From: Enterobacteria phage MED1
Direction: 5' to 3' (one strand)
Sequence record: KJ997912.1
Length of the DNA: 5,386 bases
Program-made: the position numbers and the translations under genes
Notes under the pieces: generated by a model
Told to the model about the DNA's origin: nothing
Databases searched by the model: none
What the model saw: only the letters and a program-made list of their open reading frames with translations
Part shown: positions 1 through 5,386 of the stretch, one piece after another
Numbering within the stretch: the stretch's first letter is position 1
Layout of the letters: each line of letters starts with the position of its first letter

Positions 1-51
1 GAGTTTTATCGCTTCCATGACGCAGAAGTTAACACTTTCGGATATTTCTGA
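1..51 (+). CDS. B: Internal scaffolding protein B, C-terminal 16 codons plus stop (continuation of 5075..5386 across the circular junction); stop TGA 49-51
   Basis: Translation of 1-51 in frame 1 gives [16 protein letters not shown], the conserved phiX174 B C-terminus; the stop overlaps the K start (TGATG at 49-53). Confidence 0.85.
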
Positions 52-136
52 TGAGTCGAAAAATTATCTTGATAAAGCAGGAATTACTACTGCTTGTTTA
101 CGAATTAAATCGAAGTGGACTGCTGGCGGAAAATGA
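1..136 (+). CDS. A: Replication initiator protein A (and A*), C-terminal segment; continuation across the circular junction of the ORF that runs off the window end at 5386 (position 1 is the third base of the junction codon CAG); stop TGA at 134-136
   Basis: Frame continuous with the 3981..5386 ORF when the ends are joined; translation ...[46 protein letters not shown] matches the phiX174 A C-terminus as I recall it; the stop overlaps the gene C start (ATGA at 133-136). Confidence 0.85.
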
Positions 137-221
137 GAAAATTCGACCTATCCTTGCGCAGCTCGAGAAGCTCTTACTTTGCGACCTTTCGCCATCAACT
201 AACGATTCTGTCAAAAACTGA
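51..221 (+). CDS. K: Protein K (56 aa, small nonessential membrane protein), overlapping the end of A and the start of C
   Basis: ATG 51-53 to TGA 219-221; translation [56 protein letters not shown] matches phiX174 K as recalled. Absent from the ORF track, presumably because it is below the length cutoff. Confidence 0.85.
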
Positions 222-393
222 TGCGTTGGATGAGGAGAAGTGGCTCAATATGCTTGGCACGTTCGTTAAGGACTGGTTTAGATATGAGTCACATTTTGTT
301 CACGGTAGAGATTCTCTTGTTGACATTTTAAAAGAGCGCGGATTATTATCTGAATCCGATGTAGTTCAACCATTAATAGGTAAAAAATCATGA
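133..393 (+). CDS. C: Protein C (86 aa; DNA maturation, switch from RF replication to ssDNA synthesis/packaging)
   Basis: ATG 133-135 (ATGA overlap with the A stop) to TGA 391-393 (ATGA overlap with the D start). The ORF track starts at 115, but that codon is GTG; the canonical start is the ATG at 133 ([11 protein letters not shown]...). Confidence 0.9.
320..358 (+). promoter_or_regulatory. Promoter pD (sigma70-type) inside gene C, driving the D-E-J-F-G-H late transcript
   Basis: -35 TTGACA at 320-325, 18-bp spacer, -10 TATTAT at 344-349; expected transcription start about 356-358, consistent with the known pD position in phiX174. Confidence 0.6.
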
Positions 394-848
394 GTCAAGT
401 TACTGAACAATCTGTACGTTTCCAAACCGCGCTGGCTTCTATCAAGCTGATTCAGGCTTCTGCTGTTCTGGATTTAACCGAAGATGATTTCGATTTTCTG
501 ACGAGTAATAAAGTTTGGATTGCTACTGACCGTTCTCGCGCTCGTCGCTGTGTAGAGGCTTGCGTCTATGGTACATTGGACTTTGTGGGATACCCTCGCT
601 TTCCTGCTCCTGTTGAGTTTATTGCTGCCGTCATTGCTTATTATGTTCATCCCGTCAACATTCAAACGGCCTGTCTCATCATGGAAGGCGCTGAGTTTAC
701 GGAAAACATTATTAATGGCGTCGAGCGTCCGGTTAAGGCCGCTGAGCTGTTCGCGTTTACCCTGCGTGTACGCGCAGGAAACACTGACGTTCTTACTGAC
801 GCAGAAGAGAACGTTCGCCAAAAATTACGCGCAGAAGGAGTGATGTAA
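390..848 (+). CDS. D: External scaffolding protein D (152 aa)
   Basis: ORF 390..848; translation [22 protein letters not shown]... is, as far as I can recall, identical to phiX174 D; start overlaps the C stop (ATGA), stop overlaps the J start (TAATG). Confidence 0.95.
   Translation: MSQVTEQSVRFQTALASIKLIQASAVLDLTEDDFDFLTSNKVWIATDRSRARRCVEACVYGTLDFVGYPRFPAPVEFIAAVIAYYVHPVNIQTACLIMEGAEFTENIINGVERPVKAAELFAFTLRVRAGNTDVLTDAEENVRQKLRAEGVM
568..843 (+). CDS. E: Lysis protein E (91 aa; MraY inhibitor), fully embedded in gene D in the +1 frame
   Basis: ATG 568 with AGAGG at 554-558 upstream; translation MVHWTLWDTLAFLLLLSLLLPSLLIMFIPSTFKRP... matches the phiX174 E N-terminal transmembrane domain including the LLLPSLL proline; the C-terminal half carries several substitutions versus the reference as recalled. 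Confidence 0.9.
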   Translation: MVHWTLWDTLAFLLLLSLLLPSLLIMFIPSTFKRPVSSWKALSLRKTLLMASSVRLRPLSCSRLPCVYAQETLTFLLTQKRTFAKNYAQKE

Positions 849-964
849 TGTCTAAAGGTAAAAAACGTTCTGGCGCTCGCCCCGGTCGTCCGCAGCCGTT
901 GCGAGGTACTAAAGGCAAGCGTAAAGGTGCTCGCCTCTGGTATGTAGGTGGTCAACAATTTTAA
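848..964 (+). CDS. J: DNA-binding / packaging protein J (38 aa, highly basic)
   Basis: ATG 848-850 to TAA 962-964; AGGAG at 836-840; translation MSKGKKRSGARPGRPQPLRGTKGKRKGARLWYVGGQQF matches phiX174 J. Confidence 0.9.
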   Translation: MSKGKKRSGARPGRPQPLRGTKGKRKGARLWYVGGQQF

Positions 965-969
965 TTATA

Positions 970-983
970 GGGGCTTCGGCCCC
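970..983 (+). terminator. J-F intergenic stem-loop GGGGC-UUCG-GCCCC (leaky terminator TJ / mRNA stabilising hairpin)
   Basis: Perfect 5-bp GC stem 970-974/979-983 closing a UUCG tetraloop 975-978; no following U-tract, consistent with an inefficient terminator; the gene F ribosome-binding site GAGG lies just downstream at 990-993. Confidence 0.55.
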
Positions 984-1000
984 TTACTTGAGGATAAATT

Positions 1001-2284
1001 ATGTCTAATGTTCAAACTGGCGCACAACGTATGCCGCATGACCTTTCCCATCTTGGCTTCCTTGCTGGTCAGATTGGTCGTCTTATTACCATTTCAACTA
1101 CTCCGGTTATCGCTGGCGACTCCTTCGAAATGGACGTCGTGGGCGCTCTTCGTCTTTCTCCATTGCGTCGTGGCCTTGCTATTGACTCTACTGTAGACAT
1201 TTTTACTTTTTATGTCCCTCATCGTCATGTTTATGGTGAGCAGTGGATTAAGTTTATGAAGGATGGCGTTAAAGCCGCTCCGCTCCCGACCGTTAACACT
1301 ACTGGTAATATTGACCATGCCGCTTTTCTTGGCACGATTAACCCTGATACCAATAAAATTCCTAAGCATTTGTTTCAGGGTTATCTGAATATCTATAACA
1401 ACTATTTTAAAGCGCCGTGGATGCCTGACCGTACCGAGGCTAACCCCAATCAGCTTAATGAAGATGATGCTCGCTATGGTTTCCGTTGCTGCCATCTTAA
1501 AAACATTTGGACTGCTCCGCTTCCTCCTGAGAGTGAGCTTTCTCGCCAAATGACGACTTCTACCACGTCCATTGACATTATGGGTCTGCAAGCTGCTTAT
1601 GCTAATTTGCATACTGACCAAGAACGTGATTACTTCATGCAGCGTTATCGTGATGTTATTTCTTCATTTGGAGGCAAAACTTCTTATGACGCTGACAACC
1701 GTCCTTTACTTGTCATGCGCTCTAATTTCTGGGCATCTGGCTATGATGTTGATGGAACTGACCAAACGTCGTTAGGCCAGTTTTCTGGTCGTGTTCAACA
1801 GACCTATAAGCATTCTGTGCCGCGTTTCTTTGTTCCTGAGCACGGCACTATGTTTACTCTCGCGCTGGTTCGTTTCCCGCCTACGGCGACTAAAGAGATT
1901 CAGTACTTGAATGCTAAAGGTGCTTTGACTTATACCGATATTGCTGGCGACCCTGCTTTGTATGGTAACTTGCCGCCGCGTGAAATTTCTATGAAGGATG
2001 TTTTTCGTTCTGGTGATTCTTCTAAGAAGTTTAAGATTGCCGAGGGTCAATGGTATCGTTATGCGCCTTCTTATGTTTCACCTGCATATCACCTGCTTGA
2101 AGGCTTCCCATTTATTCAGGAACCGCCTTCCGGTGATTTGCAAGAACGCGTACTTATTCGCCATCATGACTATGACCAGTGTTTCCAGTCCGTTCAGTTG
2201 TTGCAGTGGAATAGTCAGGTTAAATTTAATGTGACCGTTTATCGCAATCTGCCGACCACTCGCGATTCAATCATGACTTCGTGA
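1001..2284 (+). CDS. F: Major capsid protein F (427 aa)
   Basis: ORF 1001..2284 with GAGG 7 nt upstream; translation MSN.QTGA.RMPHDLSHLGFLAGQIGRLITISTTPVIAGDSFEMD... is near-identical to phiX174 F with scattered substitutions. Confidence 0.97.
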   Translation: MSNVQTGAQRMPHDLSHLGFLAGQIGRLITISTTPVIAGDSFEMDVVGALRLSPLRRGLAIDSTVDIFTFYVPHRHVYGEQWIKFMKDGVKAAPLPTVNTTGNIDHAAFLGTINPDTNKIPKHLFQGYLNIYNNYFKAPWMPDRTEANPNQLNEDDARYGFRCCHLKNIWTAPLPPESELSRQMTTSTTSIDIMGLQAAYANLHTDQERDYFMQRYRDVISSFGGKTSYDADNRPLLVMRSNFWASGYDVDGTDQTSLGQFSGRVQQTYKHSVPRFFVPEHGTMFTLALVRFPPTATKEIQYLNAKGALTYTDIAGDPALYGNLPPREISMKDVFRSGDSSKKFKIAEGQWYRYAPSYVSPAYHLLEGFPFIQEPPSGDLQERVLIRHHDYDQCFQSVQLLQWNSQVKFNVTVYRNLPTTRDSIMTS

Positions 2285-2315
2285 TAAAAGATTAAGTGTG
2301 AGGTTATAACGCCGA

Positions 2316-2343
2316 AGCGGTAAAAATTTTAATTTTTGCCGCT
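2316..2343 (+). terminator. F-G intergenic long hairpin (terminator TF; core of the PriA / n-prime primosome assembly site used for complementary-strand synthesis)
   Basis: AGCGGTAAAAATT (2316-2328) pairs with AATTTTTGCCGCT (2331-2343), with one G-U wobble; smaller GC hairpins flank it (CCG-AAG-CGG at 2312-2320, GCG-AAG-CGC at about 2359-2367). The F-G intergenic region of phiX174 is the known n-prime recognition site. Confidence 0.5.
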
Positions 2344-2394
2344 GAGGGGTTGACCAAGCGAAGCGCGGTAGGTTTTCTGCTTAGGAGTTTAATC

Positions 2395-2922
2395 ATGTTT
2401 CAGACTTTTATTTCTCGCCATAATTCAAACTTTTTTTCTGATAAGCTGGATCTCCGTTCTGTTACTCCAGCTTCTTCAGCACCTGTTTTACAGACACCTA
2501 AAGCTACATCGTCAACGTTATATTTTAATGAGTTGATGGTTAACGCTGGTAATGGTGGTTTTCTTCATTGCATTCAGATGGACACATCTGTCAACGCCGC
2601 TAATCAGGTTGTTTCTGTTGGTGCTGATATTGCTTTTGATGTCGACCCTAAATTTTTTGCCTGTTTGGTTCGCTTTGAGTCTTCTTCGGTTCCGACTACC
2701 CTCCCGACTGCTTATGATGTTTATCCTTTGGATGGTCGCCATGATGGTGGTTATTATACTGTTAAGGATTGCGTGACTATTGACGTTCTTCCCCGTACGC
2801 CGGGCAATAATGTTTATGTTGGTTTCATGGTTTGGTCTAACTTTACCGGTACTAAATGCCGCGGATTGGTTTCGCTGAATCAGGTTATTAAAGAGATTAT
2901 TTGTCTCCAGCCACTTAAGTGA
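2395..2922 (+). CDS. G: Major spike protein G (175 aa)
   Basis: ATG 2395 with AGGAG at 2383-2387; the ORF track's 2350 start is an in-frame upstream extension without an RBS; translation [18 protein letters not shown]... matches phiX174 G with a few substitutions. Confidence 0.95.
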
Positions 2923-2930
2923 GGTGATTT

Positions 2931-3917
2931 ATGTTTGGTGCTATTGCTGGCGGTATTGCTTCCGCTCTTGCTGGCGGCGCCATGTCTAAATTGTTTGGAG
3001 GCGGTCAAAAAGCCGCCTCCGGTGGCATTCAAGGTGATGTGCTTGCTACCGATAACAATACTGTAGGCATGGGTGACGCTGGTATTAAATCTGCCATTCA
3101 AGGCTCTAATGTTCCTAACCCTGATGAGGCCGCCCCTAATTTTGTTTCTGGTGCTATGGCTAAAGCTGGTAAAGGGCTTCTTGAAGGTACGTTGCAGGCT
3201 GGCACTTCTGCCGTTTCTGATAAGTTTCTTGATTTGGTTGGACTTGGTGGCAAGTCTGCCGCTGATAAAGGAAAGGATACTCGTGATTATCTTGCTGCTG
3301 CATTTCCTGAGCTTAACGCTTGGGAGCGTGCTGGTGCTGGTGCTTCCTCTGCTGGTATGGTTGACGCCGGATTTGAGAATCAAAAAGAGCTTACTAAAAT
3401 GCAACTGGACAATCAGAAAGAGATTGCCGAGATGCAAAATGAAACTCAAAAGGAGATTGCTGGCATTCAGTCGGCGACTTCCCGTCAGAATACGAAAGAC
3501 CAAGTATATGCACAAAATGAGATGCTTGCTTATCAACAAAAGGAGTCTACTGCTCGCGTTGCGTCTATTATGGAAAACACCAATCTTTCCAAGCAACAGC
3601 AGGTTTCTGAGATTATGCGCCAGATGCTTATACAGGCTCAAACGGCTGGCCAGTATTTTACTAACGACCAAATCAAAGAGATGACTCGCAAGGTTAGCGC
3701 TGAAGTTGACTTGGTTCATCAACAGACGCAGAATCAGCGGTATGGTTCTTCTCATATTGGTGCTACTGCTAAGGATATTTCTAATGTCGTCACTGATGCT
3801 GCTTCTGGTGTGGTTGATATTTTTCATGGTATTGATAAAGCTGTTGCCGACACTTGGAACAATTTCTGGAAAGACGGTAAAGCTGATGGCATTGGCTCTA
3901 ATTTGTCTAGGAAGTAA
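2931..3917 (+). CDS. H: Minor spike / DNA pilot protein H (328 aa)
   Basis: ORF 2931..3917; RBS GAGGTGA at 2921-2927 overlaps the G stop; Gly-rich N-terminus ([25 protein letters not shown]) and Q/E/K-rich central coiled-coil region typical of phiX174 H. Confidence 0.95.
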
Positions 3918-3926
3918 CCGTCAGGA

Positions 3927-3955
3927 TTGACACCTTTCTAATTGTGTGATTTCAT
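3927..3955 (+). promoter_or_regulatory. Candidate promoter pA in the H-A intergenic region
   Basis: -35 TTGACA at 3927-3932; TG at 3947-3948 followed by a weak -10 TTTCAT at 3950-3955 (extended -10 arrangement, 17-bp spacer). Position agrees with the known pA of phiX174; exact start site not determinable from sequence. Confidence 0.45.
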
Positions 3956-3980
3956 GCCTCCAAACTTTGGAGGCTTTTTT
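3956..3980 (+). terminator. Rho-independent terminator TH: GCCTCCAAA/TTTGGAGGC hairpin followed by a T6 run, immediately before the A start codon
   Basis: Inverted repeat 3956-3964 / 3966-3974, then TTTTTT at 3975-3980; the 3-prime arm contains GGAGG (3969-3973), which also serves as the Shine-Dalgarno sequence of gene A (ATG 3981). Confidence 0.6.
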
Positions 3981-5386
3981 ATGGTTCGTTCGTATTACCC
4001 TTCTGAATGTCACGCTGATTATTTTGACTTTGAGCGTATCGAGGCTCTTAAACCTGCTATCGAGGCCTGTGGCATTTCTACTCTTTCCCAATCTCCGATG
4101 CTTGCCTTCCATAAGCAGATGGATAACCGCATCAAGCTCCTTGAAGAGATTTTGTCATTTCGTATGCAGGGCGTTGAGTTCGATAATGGTGATATGTATG
4201 TCGACGGTCATAAGGCTGCTTCTGATGTTCGTGATGAGTTTGTGTCTGTTACTGAAAAGTTAATGGATGAATTGGCACAATGTTACAACGTGCTCCCCCA
4301 ACTTGATATTAATAACACTATAGACCACCGCCCCGAAGGGGACGAAAAATGGTTTTTAGAGAACGAGAAGACGGTTACGCAGTTTTGCCGTAAGCTGGCT
4401 GCTGAACGCCCTCTTAAGGATATTCGAGATGAGTATAATTACCCCAAAAAGAAAGGTATTAAGGATGAGTGTTCAAGATTGTTGGAGGCCTCCACTATGA
4501 AATCGCGTAGAGGCTTTACTATTCAACGTTTGATGAATGCAATGCGTCAGGCTCACGCTGATGGCTGGTTTATCGTTTTTGACACTCTTACGCTGGCTGA
4601 TGACCGCTTAGAGGCGTTTTATGATAATCCCAATGCTTTGCGTGACTATTTTCGTGATATTGGTCGTATGGTTCTTGCTGCCGAGGGTCGTAAAGCTAAT
4701 GACTCACACGCCGACTGCTATCAGTATTTTTGTGTGCCTGAGTATGGTTCAGCTAATGGCCGTCTTCATTTCCATGCGGTGCATTTTATGCGGACACTTC
4801 CTACAGGTAGCGTTGACCCTAATTTTGGTCGTCGGGTACGCAATCGCCGCCAGTTAAATAGCTTGCAAAACACGTGGCCTTATGGTTACAGTATGCCTAT
4901 CGCAGTTCGCTACACGCAGGACGCTTTTTCACGTTCTGGATGGTTGTGGCCTGTTGATGCTAAAGGTGAGCCGCTTAAAGCTACCAGTTACATGGCTGTT
5001 GGCTTCTATGTGGCTAAATACGTTAACAAAAAGTCAGATATGGACCTTGCCGCTAAAGGTCTAGGAGCTAAAGAATGGAACAACTCACTAAAAACCAAGC
5101 TGTCGCTACTTCCCAAGAAATTATTCAGAATCCGAATGAGCCGCAACTTCGGGATGAAAATGCTCACAATGACCAACCTGTCAATGGAATGCTTAATCCA
5201 GCTTACCAAGCTGGGTTACGACGCGACGCCGTTCAACCAGATATTGAAGCAGAACGCAAAAAGAGAGATGAGATTGAGGCTGGCAAAAGTTACTGTAGCC
5301 GACGTTTTGGCGGCGCAACCTGTGACGACAAATCTGCTCAAATTTATGCGCGCTTCGATAAAAATGATTGGCGTGTCCAACCTGCA
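3981..5386 (+). CDS. A: Replication initiator protein A (HUH rolling-circle endonuclease; 513 aa in total), N-terminal about 468 codons; the ORF runs off the window end and finishes at 1..136
   Basis: ATG 3981 preceded by GGAGG; no in-frame stop to position 5386; HUH motif HFHAVH encoded at 4767-4784; catalytic tyrosine pair in VGFYVAKYVNKK (Tyr codons 5007-5009 and 5019-5021, residues 343 and 347). Confidence 0.95.
   Translation, partial: MVRSYYPSECHADYFDFERIEALKPAIEACGISTLSQSPMLAFHKQMDNRIKLLEEILSFRMQGVEFDNGDMYVDGHKAASDVRDEFVSVTEKLMDELAQCYNVLPQLDINNTIDHRPEGDEKWFLENEKTVTQFCRKLAAERPLKDIRDEYNYPKKKGIKDECSRLLEASTMKSRRGFTIQRLMNAMRQAHADGWFIVFDTLTLADDRLEAFYDNPNALRDYFRDIGRMVLAAEGRKANDSHADCYQYFCVPEYGSANGRLHFHAVHFMRTLPTGSVDPNFGRRVRNRRQLNSLQNTWPYGYSMPIAVRYTQDAFSRSGWLWPVDAKGEPLKATSYMAVGFYVAKYVNKKSDMDLAAKGLGAKEWNNSLKTKLSLLPKKLFRIRMSRNFGMKMLTMTNLSMECLIQLTKLGYDATPFNQILKQNAKREMRLRLAKVTVADVLAAQPVTTNLLKFMRASIKMIGVSNL
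4299..4328 (+). other. Viral-strand origin of replication (30-nt A-protein recognition sequence); nick site between G4305 and A4306
   Basis: CAACTTGATATTAATAACACTATAGACCAC at 4299-4328 is the canonical phiX174 ori, located inside gene A at the same coordinates as in the reference. Confidence 0.85.
4497..5386 (+). CDS. A*: A* protein (341 aa in total): internal in-frame translation initiation within gene A; continues to 1..136
   Basis: In-frame ATG at 4497 preceded by GGAGG at 4484-4488 (8-nt spacing); corresponds to the known A* start of phiX174 (MKSRRGF...). Confidence 0.75.
   Translation, partial: MKSRRGFTIQRLMNAMRQAHADGWFIVFDTLTLADDRLEAFYDNPNALRDYFRDIGRMVLAAEGRKANDSHADCYQYFCVPEYGSANGRLHFHAVHFMRTLPTGSVDPNFGRRVRNRRQLNSLQNTWPYGYSMPIAVRYTQDAFSRSGWLWPVDAKGEPLKATSYMAVGFYVAKYVNKKSDMDLAAKGLGAKEWNNSLKTKLSLLPKKLFRIRMSRNFGMKMLTMTNLSMECLIQLTKLGYDATPFNQILKQNAKREMRLRLAKVTVADVLAAQPVTTNLLKFMRASIKMIGVSNL
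4850..4900 (+). promoter_or_regulatory. Approximate location of promoter pB (inside gene A, upstream of B)
   Basis: Weak sigma70-like elements only (TTGCAA at 4863-4868, then TTACAG/TACAGT around 4886-4892); placed mainly from knowledge that pB lies about 190 nt upstream of B in phiX174. Exact hexamers uncertain. Confidence 0.3.
5075..5386 (+). CDS. B: Internal scaffolding protein B (120 aa in total), embedded in gene A in a different frame; continues at 1..51
   Basis: ATG 5075 with AGGAG at 5063-5067; translation MEQLTKNQAVATSQE... with the conserved C-terminus after the wrap; the N-terminal third carries several substitutions versus the reference as recalled. Confidence 0.9.
   Translation, partial: MEQLTKNQAVATSQEIIQNPNEPQLRDENAHNDQPVNGMLNPAYQAGLRRDAVQPDIEAERKKRDEIEAGKSYCSRRFGGATCDDKSAQIYARFDKNDWRVQPA

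What the first reader, a model, noticed from the sequence alone, without database searches (positions are those of the whole stretch)
4299..4328. Canonical 30-nt origin conserved, with intact HUH endonuclease active site in A
The ori sequence CAACTTGATATTAATAACACTATAGACCAC, the HUH motif (HFHAVH, 4767-4784) and the twin catalytic tyrosines (codons 5007-5009 and 5019-5021) are all intact despite surrounding substitutions. This indicates a functional rolling-circle replication module and marks which parts of A are under the strongest constraint.
Basis: partly seen in the sequence, partly recalled or inferred. Interest (0 to 1): 0.35.

Follow-up and report, generated by a model that had tools for sequence, protein, structure and literature searches.

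The report
Standard phiX174 replication origin and nickase
This is the textbook phiX174 replication start site and the enzyme that nicks it, both intact in a new phiX174-like genome, so the feature is real but ordinary.

Summary
The window is a complete 5386-nt phiX174-type genome, 96.6% identical to its nearest database record. The 30-nt viral-strand origin is exact at 4299-4328, which is gene A codons Q107-H116. H263-F264-H265-A-V-H268 lies at 4767-4784, and Y343 and Y347 lie at 5007-5009 and 5019-5021. Gene A and the other ten genes are intact.

The reasoning "intact despite surrounding substitutions" does not hold for this window alone. At 3.9% divergence from phiX174, an untouched 30-mer is expected about 30% of the time. 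A differs from phiX174 A by only 4 of 513 residues. A synonymous change sits inside the cited HUH coordinates, at 4784.

Real evidence of constraint comes from other genera. G4-like phages share the exact 30-mer, and the match begins and ends exactly at its borders. Alpha3-like phages differ at two spacer positions, and both changes alter the amino acid. No synonymous site in the ori varies across the three genera. The His and Tyr codons, by contrast, wobble freely while the residues stay fixed. So the ori is conserved as DNA and the active site as protein. Published saturation mutagenesis agrees.

Verdict: already known, low interest.

The parts
4299..4328 (+). 30-nt viral (+) strand origin of rolling-circle replication. 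It lies inside gene A as codons Q107-H116.
   Evidence: Exact single match, 0 of 200 shuffles. Identical in phiX174, ID34, NC1, NC51, WA4, PJNS001, G4, ID2 and Lilleput, and 28/30 in alpha3, St-1 and WA13. 565 phage records match at 99% or better, a count that includes a few short chance matches in unrelated phages. Synonymous changes at Q107-D115 are reported detrimental (10.64898/2026.07.25.740675).
4305..4306 (+). Nick and religation site, CAACTTG^ATA (G4305 / A4306).
   Evidence: The bases are read directly. The cleavage position is as stated for phiX174 in 10.64898/2026.07.25.740675. It was not tested for this genome.
4309..4312 (+). AT-rich middle of the ori. It contains the only two positions that differ in the alpha3 group: T4309A (I110N) and A4312G (N111S).
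4328..4328 (+). Last ori base. It is the only ori position that varies within the phiX174 clade (C>T in WA11, synonymous at H116).
   Evidence: H116 is absent from the published list of detrimental synonymous sites.
3981..5386 (+). Gene A, part 1 (codons 1-468 plus 2 nt). A is the replication initiator, an HUH nickase-ligase.
   Evidence: Translation. Pfam PF05840 Phage_GPA at 210 bits against a cutoff of 31.4, and PF23343 at 33.6 against 27.8. PHROG 713, DNA replication initiation.
1..136 (+). Gene A, part 2. The reading frame continues across the circular junction to the stop codon at 134-136.
   Evidence: 1542 nt, 513 aa, no internal stop. The annotation of relatives is identical.
4497..4499 (+). 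In-frame internal ATG of A* (M173).
   Evidence: A* is annotated at 4497 in phiX174 and ID34.
4767..4784 (+). HUH motif H263-F264-H265 (4767-4775), followed by A266-V267-H268.
   Evidence: All three His are invariant across three genera, with free synonymous wobble between CAT and CAC. H263 and H265 are reported highly mutation-sensitive.
5007..5021 (+). Catalytic tyrosine pair Y343-V-A-K-Y347.
   Evidence: Both Tyr are invariant across three genera, with TAT/TAC wobble. Their roles are as stated for phiX174.
4740..4742 (+). E254, proposed to contact the Mg2+ together with H263 and H265.
   Evidence: The residue is present and lies in the invariant block CVPE. Its role comes from AlphaFold 3 modelling plus mutagenesis in 10.64898/2026.07.25.740675.
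4584..4592 (+). T202-L-T204, inside the most conserved A block (VFDTLTLADDR). Proposed to help position the DNA.

Best explanation
The window is a complete phiX174-type (Sinsheimervirus, Bullavirinae) genome. Positions 4299-4328 are its viral-strand replication origin, and gene A (3981..136) encodes the HUH nickase-ligase that acts on it.

The mechanism is inferred from phiX174, because every residue and base known to matter is the same.
1. Protein A binds the ori on supercoiled replicative-form DNA.
2. It cuts the + strand between G4305 and A4306. A catalytic tyrosine (Y343 or Y347) becomes joined to the 5' phosphate. H263, H265 and probably E254 hold the Mg2+.
3. The free 3'-OH primes host-driven rolling-circle synthesis.
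4. When the regenerated ori comes round, the second tyrosine cuts it and the first phosphotyrosine bond is resolved to close the displaced strand into a circle. The enzyme is then reloaded for the next round.

The ori is selected as DNA: its synonymous sites are frozen. The HUH and Tyr residues are selected as protein: their codons wobble.
For: Shown here:
- The ori is exact and unique.
- All 11 genes are intact, and A carries T202, T204, E254, R261, H263, F264, H265, H268, Y343 and Y347.
- Every A residue in the window is also seen in at least one of the 17 natural relatives whose A protein could be compared.
- Pfam Phage_GPA scores 210 bits and PF23343 is above its threshold. PHROG 713 agrees.
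- Cross-genus conservation of the ori: the exact match to G4, ID2 and Lilleput starts and ends exactly at 4299 and 4328. It is the 2nd or 3rd longest shared word in the genome. It lies in the top 0.09-0.85% of all 30-nt windows against G4-like genomes and the top 1.6-3.4% against alpha3-like genomes.
- Codons encoding the same amino acid are identical 10/10 and 8/8 times in the ori, against 51-60% elsewhere in A. That gives P about 0.004-0.007 per lineage.
- The two alpha3-group changes are non-synonymous.
- The ori peptide is a conserved island: 8/10 invariant, flanked by regions with 6/106 and 10/56 invariant.
- The ori is unstructured as single-stranded DNA.

From the literature:
- Cleavage at G4305/A4306, the roles of Y343 and Y347, H263/H265/E254 at the Mg2+, and detrimental synonymous mutations at Q107-D115 (10.64898/2026.07.25.740675).
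- Phage_GPA is a family of HUH endonucleases (PMC5714925).
Against: Nothing contradicts it. The limits are these:
- No activity was or could be measured.
- The fold-level test failed technically (AlphaFold2 mean pLDDT 43).
- No relative has a solved structure detectable by sequence.
- The provenance of the genome is unknown. Its exact F, G and H proteins are not on record. Viability of the whole phage is therefore unproven.
Confidence: 0.95

Rival explanations
1. The 30-nt block is conserved because the peptide QLDINNTIDH is needed in protein A, not because the DNA is an origin.
For: 8 of its 10 residues are invariant across three genera, while the rest of the N-terminal third of A is poorly conserved.
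Against: All synonymous sites are frozen in every genus. The only changes seen between genera alter amino acids, I110N and N111S. That is the reverse of what protein-level selection produces, and the reverse of what the HUH and Tyr codons show. Synonymous mutations at Q107-D115 are detrimental in phiX174.
Confidence: 0.03
2. The identity of the 30-mer between phiX174-like and G4-like phages reflects recent recombination between them rather than purifying selection.
For: Other long identical words are shared between genera. For example, 65-88 nt in the D/E overlap at 577-664 are shared with ID2 and the alpha3 group. Some exchange between genera is therefore conceivable.
Against: In three different G4-like genomes the match starts and ends exactly at the functional borders, with diverged codons immediately on both sides (GGA vs CCC upstream; AAA or ACC vs CGC downstream). 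The alpha3 group keeps 28/30 in a completely different context. Mutagenesis shows direct fitness cost.
Confidence: 0.02
3. The genome is not a natural isolate but a designed or model-generated phiX174-like sequence. On this view the intact ori and active site reflect copying of invariant training data rather than selection acting on this lineage.
For: The nearest record is only 96.6% identical. The exact F, G and H proteins are not on record in the assembly collection searched, and a private 38-mer is absent from the viral contig collection. Published generated genomes are 93.0-98.8% identical to natural ones, and all 16 viable ones kept an unmutated ori (10.1101/2025.09.12.675911).
Against: Leave-one-out statistics fall inside the range of natural clade members. 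The window has 184 differences to its nearest genome, 30 private sites, 117 mosaic segments and 40% of private changes non-synonymous. PJNS001 has 156/22/125, WA4 156/32/135 and ID22 194/38/133 for the first three measures. This question also does not change what the feature is or how it would work.
Confidence: 0.3

Closest known systems
phiX174 ori(+) and gene A protein (Sinsheimervirus phiX174)
   Same: The 30-mer is identical, at the same coordinates and in the same reading frame (codons 107-116). The nick-site bases are the same. A is 513 aa with the same A* start and the same H263/H265/E254/Y343/Y347. Only 4 amino acids differ from phiX174 isolate AP100: G42A, T257S, T402M and G435A.
   Different: There are 210 nucleotide differences genome-wide (3.9%). 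In gene A most codon changes leave the amino acid unchanged, including 4784 inside the HUH coordinates.
G4-like phages (Gequatrovirus: G4, ID2, Lilleput)
   Same: The 30-mer is exact and lies in the same frame of gene A. The HUH and YVAKY motifs are identical.
   Different: A is about 70% identical and 545-555 aa long, with N-terminal insertions. The sequence flanking the ori is fully diverged. G4 primes its complementary strand differently (annotated origin at 3998).
alpha3-like phages (Alphatrevirus: alpha3, St-1, WA13)
   Same: 28 of 30 ori bases match. The nick-site end (CAACTTGATA) and the right end (TAACACTATAGACCAC) are unchanged. H-x-H-x-V-H and Y-x-x-K-Y are kept.
   Different: T4309A and A4312G in the AT-rich middle change the peptide to QLDNSNTIDH. 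The motif reads HWHVVH and YVTKY. A is about 45% identical.
Other HUH rolling-circle initiators (P2 gpA in the same Pfam family; plasmid pT181/pC194 Reps; CRESS-DNA virus Reps)
   Same: They use the same chemistry: a metal held by the HUH histidines and a tyrosine that forms a 5'-phosphotyrosine link (PMC5714925). The window's A also matches PF23343, Replication-associated protein ORF2/G2P.
   Different: phiX174-type A uses two tyrosines one helical turn apart and re-initiates after each round, whereas pT181 RepC is inactivated after one round. The phiX-type ori is a linear 30-nt sequence with no predicted hairpin. From my own knowledge, CRESS and many plasmid origins present the nick site in a stem-loop.

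Membership tests
phiX174-type (Bullavirinae) viral-strand origin | The 30-nt consensus CAACTTGATATTAATAACACTATAGACCAC | tested here: met
   30/30, a single copy. Identical to phiX174, G4 and others.
phiX174-type (Bullavirinae) viral-strand origin | Located inside gene A, in frame as QLDINNTIDH (codons 107-116 in phiX174) | tested here: met
phiX174-type (Bullavirinae) viral-strand origin | Conserved as DNA beyond what the coding function requires | tested here: met
   Synonymous sites are frozen across three genera, P about 0.004-0.007 per lineage. Empirical rank is the top 0.09-3.4% of 30-nt windows. It is not detectable within the phiX174 clade or against phiX174 alone.
phiX174-type (Bullavirinae) viral-strand origin | Cleaved by protein A between G4305 and A4306, and able to support rolling-circle replication | not testable with these tools
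   The bases G4305 and A4306 are present. The activity is known for phiX174 only.
HUH endonuclease superfamily, Phage_GPA family (PF05840) | Significant match to the family profile | tested here: met
   PF05840 at 210.3 bits against a cutoff of 31.4, covering residues 76-354. PF23343 at 33.6 bits against 27.8.
HUH endonuclease superfamily, Phage_GPA family (PF05840) | [quoted passage not shown] | tested here: met
   H263-F264-H265. Invariant as H-F/W-H across three genera.
HUH endonuclease superfamily, Phage_GPA family (PF05840) | Catalytic tyrosine(s). For phiX174-type enzymes this is a pair, Y-x-x-x-Y. | tested here: met
   Y343-VAK-Y347. Both are invariant across three genera.
HUH endonuclease superfamily, Phage_GPA family (PF05840) | HUH fold, with the HUH motif on a beta-strand of the central sheet and the Tyr on a nearby helix | tested here: inconclusive
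   AlphaFold2 with a 23-sequence alignment gave mean pLDDT 43 and pTM 0.30. Strands are predicted at 197-205, 246-256 and 261-270 (the last contains HUH), but the model is too poor for a fold search. No solved relative was found by sequence.
HUH endonuclease superfamily, Phage_GPA family (PF05840) | Mg2+-dependent site-specific nicking and joining through a 5'-phosphotyrosine intermediate | not testable with these tools
   Needs biochemistry.
Species Sinsheimervirus phiX174 | At least 95% nucleotide identity to members, and the same 11-gene overlapping architecture | tested here: met
   96.6% to PJNS001, 96.5% to ID34 and 96.1% to phiX174 over 100% of the length. All 11 genes lie at phiX174 coordinates and are intact. 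The 95% criterion is as quoted.

The most novel reading that the evidence does not exclude
The only non-trivial reading is about the genome, not the finding. The window may be an unsampled phiX174-clade lineage, or a designed genome. All 12 of its private amino-acid changes lie in E, F, G and H, while the replication module (ori, A, A*) carries none. That would fit host-range or lysis evolution on top of a frozen replication core. The ori/HUH feature itself has no novel reading that the evidence leaves open.
Probability: 0.5. Interest if true: 0.15.

Novelty: already known. Interest (0 to 1): 0.08.

Why it matters
It matters little as a discovery. The phiX174 origin, its nick site, the HUH motif and the Tyr343/Tyr347 pair have been known for decades and were recently confirmed base by base by saturation mutagenesis.

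Its use here is practical. It shows that this previously unsampled phiX174-like genome carries a complete, canonical replication module, so replication is not a reason to doubt that it could be viable.

The analysis also gives a clean small illustration of how to tell DNA-level from protein-level selection inside one gene. The ori has frozen synonymous sites and tolerates amino-acid changes. The active-site residues are fixed while their codons wobble.

Tried and rejected
1. Structure prediction of A (residues 1-468) with a 23-sequence alignment gave mean pLDDT 43 and pTM 0.30. I did not run a fold search, because matches to such a model are meaningless.
2. Sequence and profile searches of the PDB found no relative. 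The only hits were at chance level: tektin, a histidine triad protein and NDUPH2.
3. NCBIfam gave no match.
4. The consensus promoter scan did not call the pB promoter at about 4860-4890. I rely on the mutagenesis paper for its position.
5. Provenance searches all came back empty: a private 38-mer in IMG/VR and exact look-ups of the F, H and G proteins.
6. I tested whether the fine mosaic of natural polymorphisms marks the genome as artificial. I rejected this as a discriminator, because natural clade members give the same statistics.
7. The primary paper on the two tyrosines (PMC339857) is not held. The older papers on the ori's three sub-domains were not found. Statements about a recognition sequence, an AT-rich spacer and a key binding sequence would therefore rest on my own knowledge only, so I limit myself to the variation pattern observed here.
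8. The small hairpin just 3' of the ori (4329-4344) is not more stable than shuffled sequence (z = -0.4) and is absent in the other genera. I do not count it as part of the origin.

Full report
WHAT THE WINDOW IS. The 5386-nt window is a complete genome of the phiX174 type, in Sanger numbering. Megablast against 50,697 phage records finds full-length matches. The best are 96.6% (Salmonella phage PJNS001), 96.5% (ID34, NC1) and 96.1% (phiX174). An alignment with 18 clade members has a single gap column and shows 184-270 differences to each. All eleven genes (A, A*, B, K, C, D, E, J, F, G, H) sit at the phiX174 coordinates with proper starts and no internal stops.

CHECK OF THE OBSERVATION. The 30-mer CAACTTGATATTAATAACACTATAGACCAC is present once, exactly, at 4299-4328. 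No second copy appears even with three mismatches, and none of 200 shuffles gives a match. Gene A starts at 3981 and runs across the circular junction to 136, encoding 513 aa. In that frame the ori is codons 107-116 (QLDINNTIDH). 4767-4784 encodes H263 F264 H265 A266 V267 H268, 5007-5009 is Y343 and 5019-5021 is Y347. There are two small corrections. The canonical HUH motif is only H263-F264-H265. And relative to phiX174 there is a synonymous CAC>CAT change at 4784, inside the cited coordinates.

IS "INTACT DESPITE SURROUNDING SUBSTITUTIONS" INFORMATIVE? Not on its own.
- The window differs from phiX174 at 210 sites (3.9%). Thirty given sites all escape change with P = 0.30 under uniform placement. 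59 of the 210 inter-substitution gaps are at least 30 nt long. A codon-based version gives P = 0.36.
- Among 19 phiX174-clade genomes, 743 columns vary. The invariant run at the ori is only about 31 nt, because WA11 carries C4328T in the last ori base. The longest run is 80 nt, in the D/E overlap. A uniform null gives a mean maximum of 48.
- On the protein side, A differs from phiX174 A at just four residues (G42A, T257S, T402M, G435A). Every residue in the window's A also occurs in at least one of the 17 natural relatives whose A protein could be compared. Conserved motif residues in this comparison therefore say nothing about relative constraint.

WHERE THE REAL SIGNAL IS. I brought in two other genera of Bullavirinae.
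- In G4, ID2 and Lilleput, A is about 70% identical as protein and about 71-73% as DNA. The 30-mer is exact, and the maximal exact match begins at 4299 and ends at 4328 in all three. The neighbouring codons are diverged (CCC vs GGA upstream; CGC vs AAA or ACC downstream).
- It is the second or third longest word shared by the genomes. Only 0.09-0.85% of all 30-nt windows match equally well.
- In alpha3, St-1 and WA13, A is about 45% identical. 28 of 30 ori bases are kept, placing the ori in the top 1.6-3.4% of windows, with only five equally good window positions in gene A.
- The two differences, T4309A and A4312G, lie in the AT-rich middle, and both change the amino acid (I110N, N111S).
- Codons that encode the same amino acid are identical in 51-60% of cases elsewhere in A, but in 10/10 and 8/8 cases in the ori. 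That gives P about 0.004-0.007 per lineage under a crude independence model.
- The ori peptide is an island: 8/10 invariant residues, flanked by regions with 6/106 and 10/56 invariant.
- By contrast, the His and Tyr codons wobble freely (CAT/CAC, TAT/TAC, GCG/GCA/GTT) while the residues stay fixed.

So the ori is under DNA-level selection and the active site under protein-level selection. Across the whole phage collection, 565 records match the 30-mer at 99% or better (a few of these are short chance matches in unrelated phages), and the alpha3 group matches at 93.3%.

AGREEMENT WITH EXPERIMENT. A complete mutagenesis of phiX174 (bioRxiv 10.64898/2026.07.25.740675) reports the following.
- Synonymous mutations at Q107, L108, D109, I110, N111, N112, T113, I114 and D115 are detrimental and coincide with ori(+).
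- Cleavage and religation occur at G4305/A4306 and need Mg2+.
- Tyr343 and Tyr347 carry out the successive attacks.
- H263, H265, E254, Y343 and Y347 are highly mutation-sensitive.

H116 is not on the list of detrimental synonymous sites. That fits the natural WA11 variant C4328T I found. The generative-design study (10.1101/2025.09.12.675911) notes that the ori was unmutated in all 16 viable generated genomes.

FAMILY ASSIGNMENT. The A protein matches Pfam PF05840 (Phage_GPA) at 210 bits against a cutoff of 31.4, and PF23343 above its threshold. It also matches PHROG 713, DNA replication initiation. PMC5714925 lists Phage_GPA, with phiX174 A as prototype, among the HUH endonuclease families. 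It also describes the two-tyrosine re-initiation cycle, in contrast with pT181 RepC. No relative has a solved structure detectable by sequence. My AlphaFold2 attempt failed: pLDDT 43 with only 23 closely related sequences, because the protein database is swamped by phiX174 spike-in copies. The fold criterion is therefore inconclusive here. The secondary-structure call does place HUH in a strand (261-270), next to strands at 197-205 and 246-256. The ori has no predicted hairpin as single-stranded DNA.

MECHANISM. The steps are inferred from phiX174. The sequence prerequisites are shown here.
1. A binds the ori on supercoiled replicative-form DNA.
2. A nicks the + strand at CAACTTG^ATA and becomes linked through one tyrosine to the 5' phosphate.
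3. The 3'-OH primes rolling-circle synthesis by host enzymes.
4. When the regenerated ori arrives, the second tyrosine cleaves it and the first bond is resolved to circularise the displaced strand. A is left loaded for another round.

WHICH PARTS OF A ARE MOST CONSTRAINED?
- At the protein level, 178 of 513 columns are invariant across the three genera, and 57% in residues 173-360. The longest invariant blocks are VFDTLTLADDR (199-209, containing T202 and T204) and NPNALRDYFR (216-225).
- At the DNA level, the long words shared with G4-like genomes inside gene A are the ori, 4855-4889 and 4711-4747.
- 4855-4889 overlaps the codons (L295-S304) where synonymous changes hit promoter pB.
- 4711-4747 (ADCYQYFCVPEYG) has no known DNA element.

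PROVENANCE. The genome is not in the searched collections. It is a fine mosaic of natural polymorphisms plus 30 private substitutions. Twelve of these are non-synonymous, and all twelve lie in E, F, G or H. Natural clade members give the same leave-one-out statistics. I therefore cannot say whether it is an unsampled isolate or a designed genome, and it does not affect the verdict.

VERDICT. The inference about "strongest constraint" is not supported by this window, and is only partly true in wider comparison. The feature is already known. Interest is low.

Noticed in passing
window 1-5386: The genome is unsampled. The nearest record is 96.6% identical. Its exact F, G and H proteins are not on record, and a private 38-mer (326-363) is absent from the viral contig collection. 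Natural isolate or designed genome cannot be decided, because its mosaic and private-substitution statistics match those of natural clade members.
   Followed up: partly
window 575, 1137, 1307, 1533, 1909, 2450, 2455, 2537, 2642, 2849, 3227, 3631: All 12 private amino-acid changes lie in E (R3H), F (A46V, Y103N, T178S, F303L), G (V19D, S21R, T48M, A83V, A152G) and H (L99F, T234I). None lies in A, B, K, C, D or J. G carries five in 175 residues, which might bear on host recognition.
   Followed up: no
L024 (WA11, DQ079895), aligned to window 4328: The natural isolate WA11 has C>T at the last base of the 30-nt ori (synonymous, H116). This matches the absence of H116 from the published list of detrimental synonymous ori mutations, and suggests that position 30 is dispensable.
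   Followed up: partly
window 577-673: The D/E overlap region is the longest invariant run in the phiX174 clade (80 nt, 594-673). It shares 65-88 nt of exact identity with ID2, alpha3, St-1 and WA13, whose gene A is only about 57-71% identical at the nucleotide level. That is far more than the ori shows. Double-coding constraint or inter-genus recombination could explain it.
   Followed up: no
window 4855-4889: A 35-nt exact word is shared with G4, the longest within gene A. It overlaps the A codons (L295-S304) where synonymous mutations are reported to hit promoter pB. The simple consensus promoter scan did not call it.
   Followed up: partly
window 4711-4747: A 28-35 nt exact word is shared with G4, ID2 and Lilleput. 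It encodes ADCYQYFCVPEYG, just upstream of the HUH motif. I am not aware of any DNA element here, so it may be an unexplained DNA-level constraint or simply chance.
   Followed up: no
window 98-126: A 29-nt exact word is shared with all three G4-like genomes. It lies in the A/K overlap just before the gene C start, and is also a 43-nt invariant run (84-126) in the phiX174 clade.
   Followed up: no
window 2316-2402: Two long invariant runs in the phiX174 clade (2316-2360 and 2362-2402) lie in the F-G intergenic region and run into the first codons of gene G. From my own knowledge, this intergenic region is where the complementary-strand origin (primosome assembly site) lies.
   Followed up: no
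window 4329-4344: A small GC hairpin (CCCC-GAA-GGGG) lies immediately 3' of the ori. It is conserved within the phiX174 clade but absent in the G4 and alpha3 groups, and it is not more stable than shuffled sequence (z = -0.4).
   Followed up: yes
protein database hits P0007, P0008, P0011, P0040, P0049, P0052, P0104: Many near-identical phiX174 A proteins are filed in public databases as proteins of fungi, a diatom or Xanthomonas, often fused to other phiX174 genes. These are evidently sequencing spike-in contamination.
   Followed up: no
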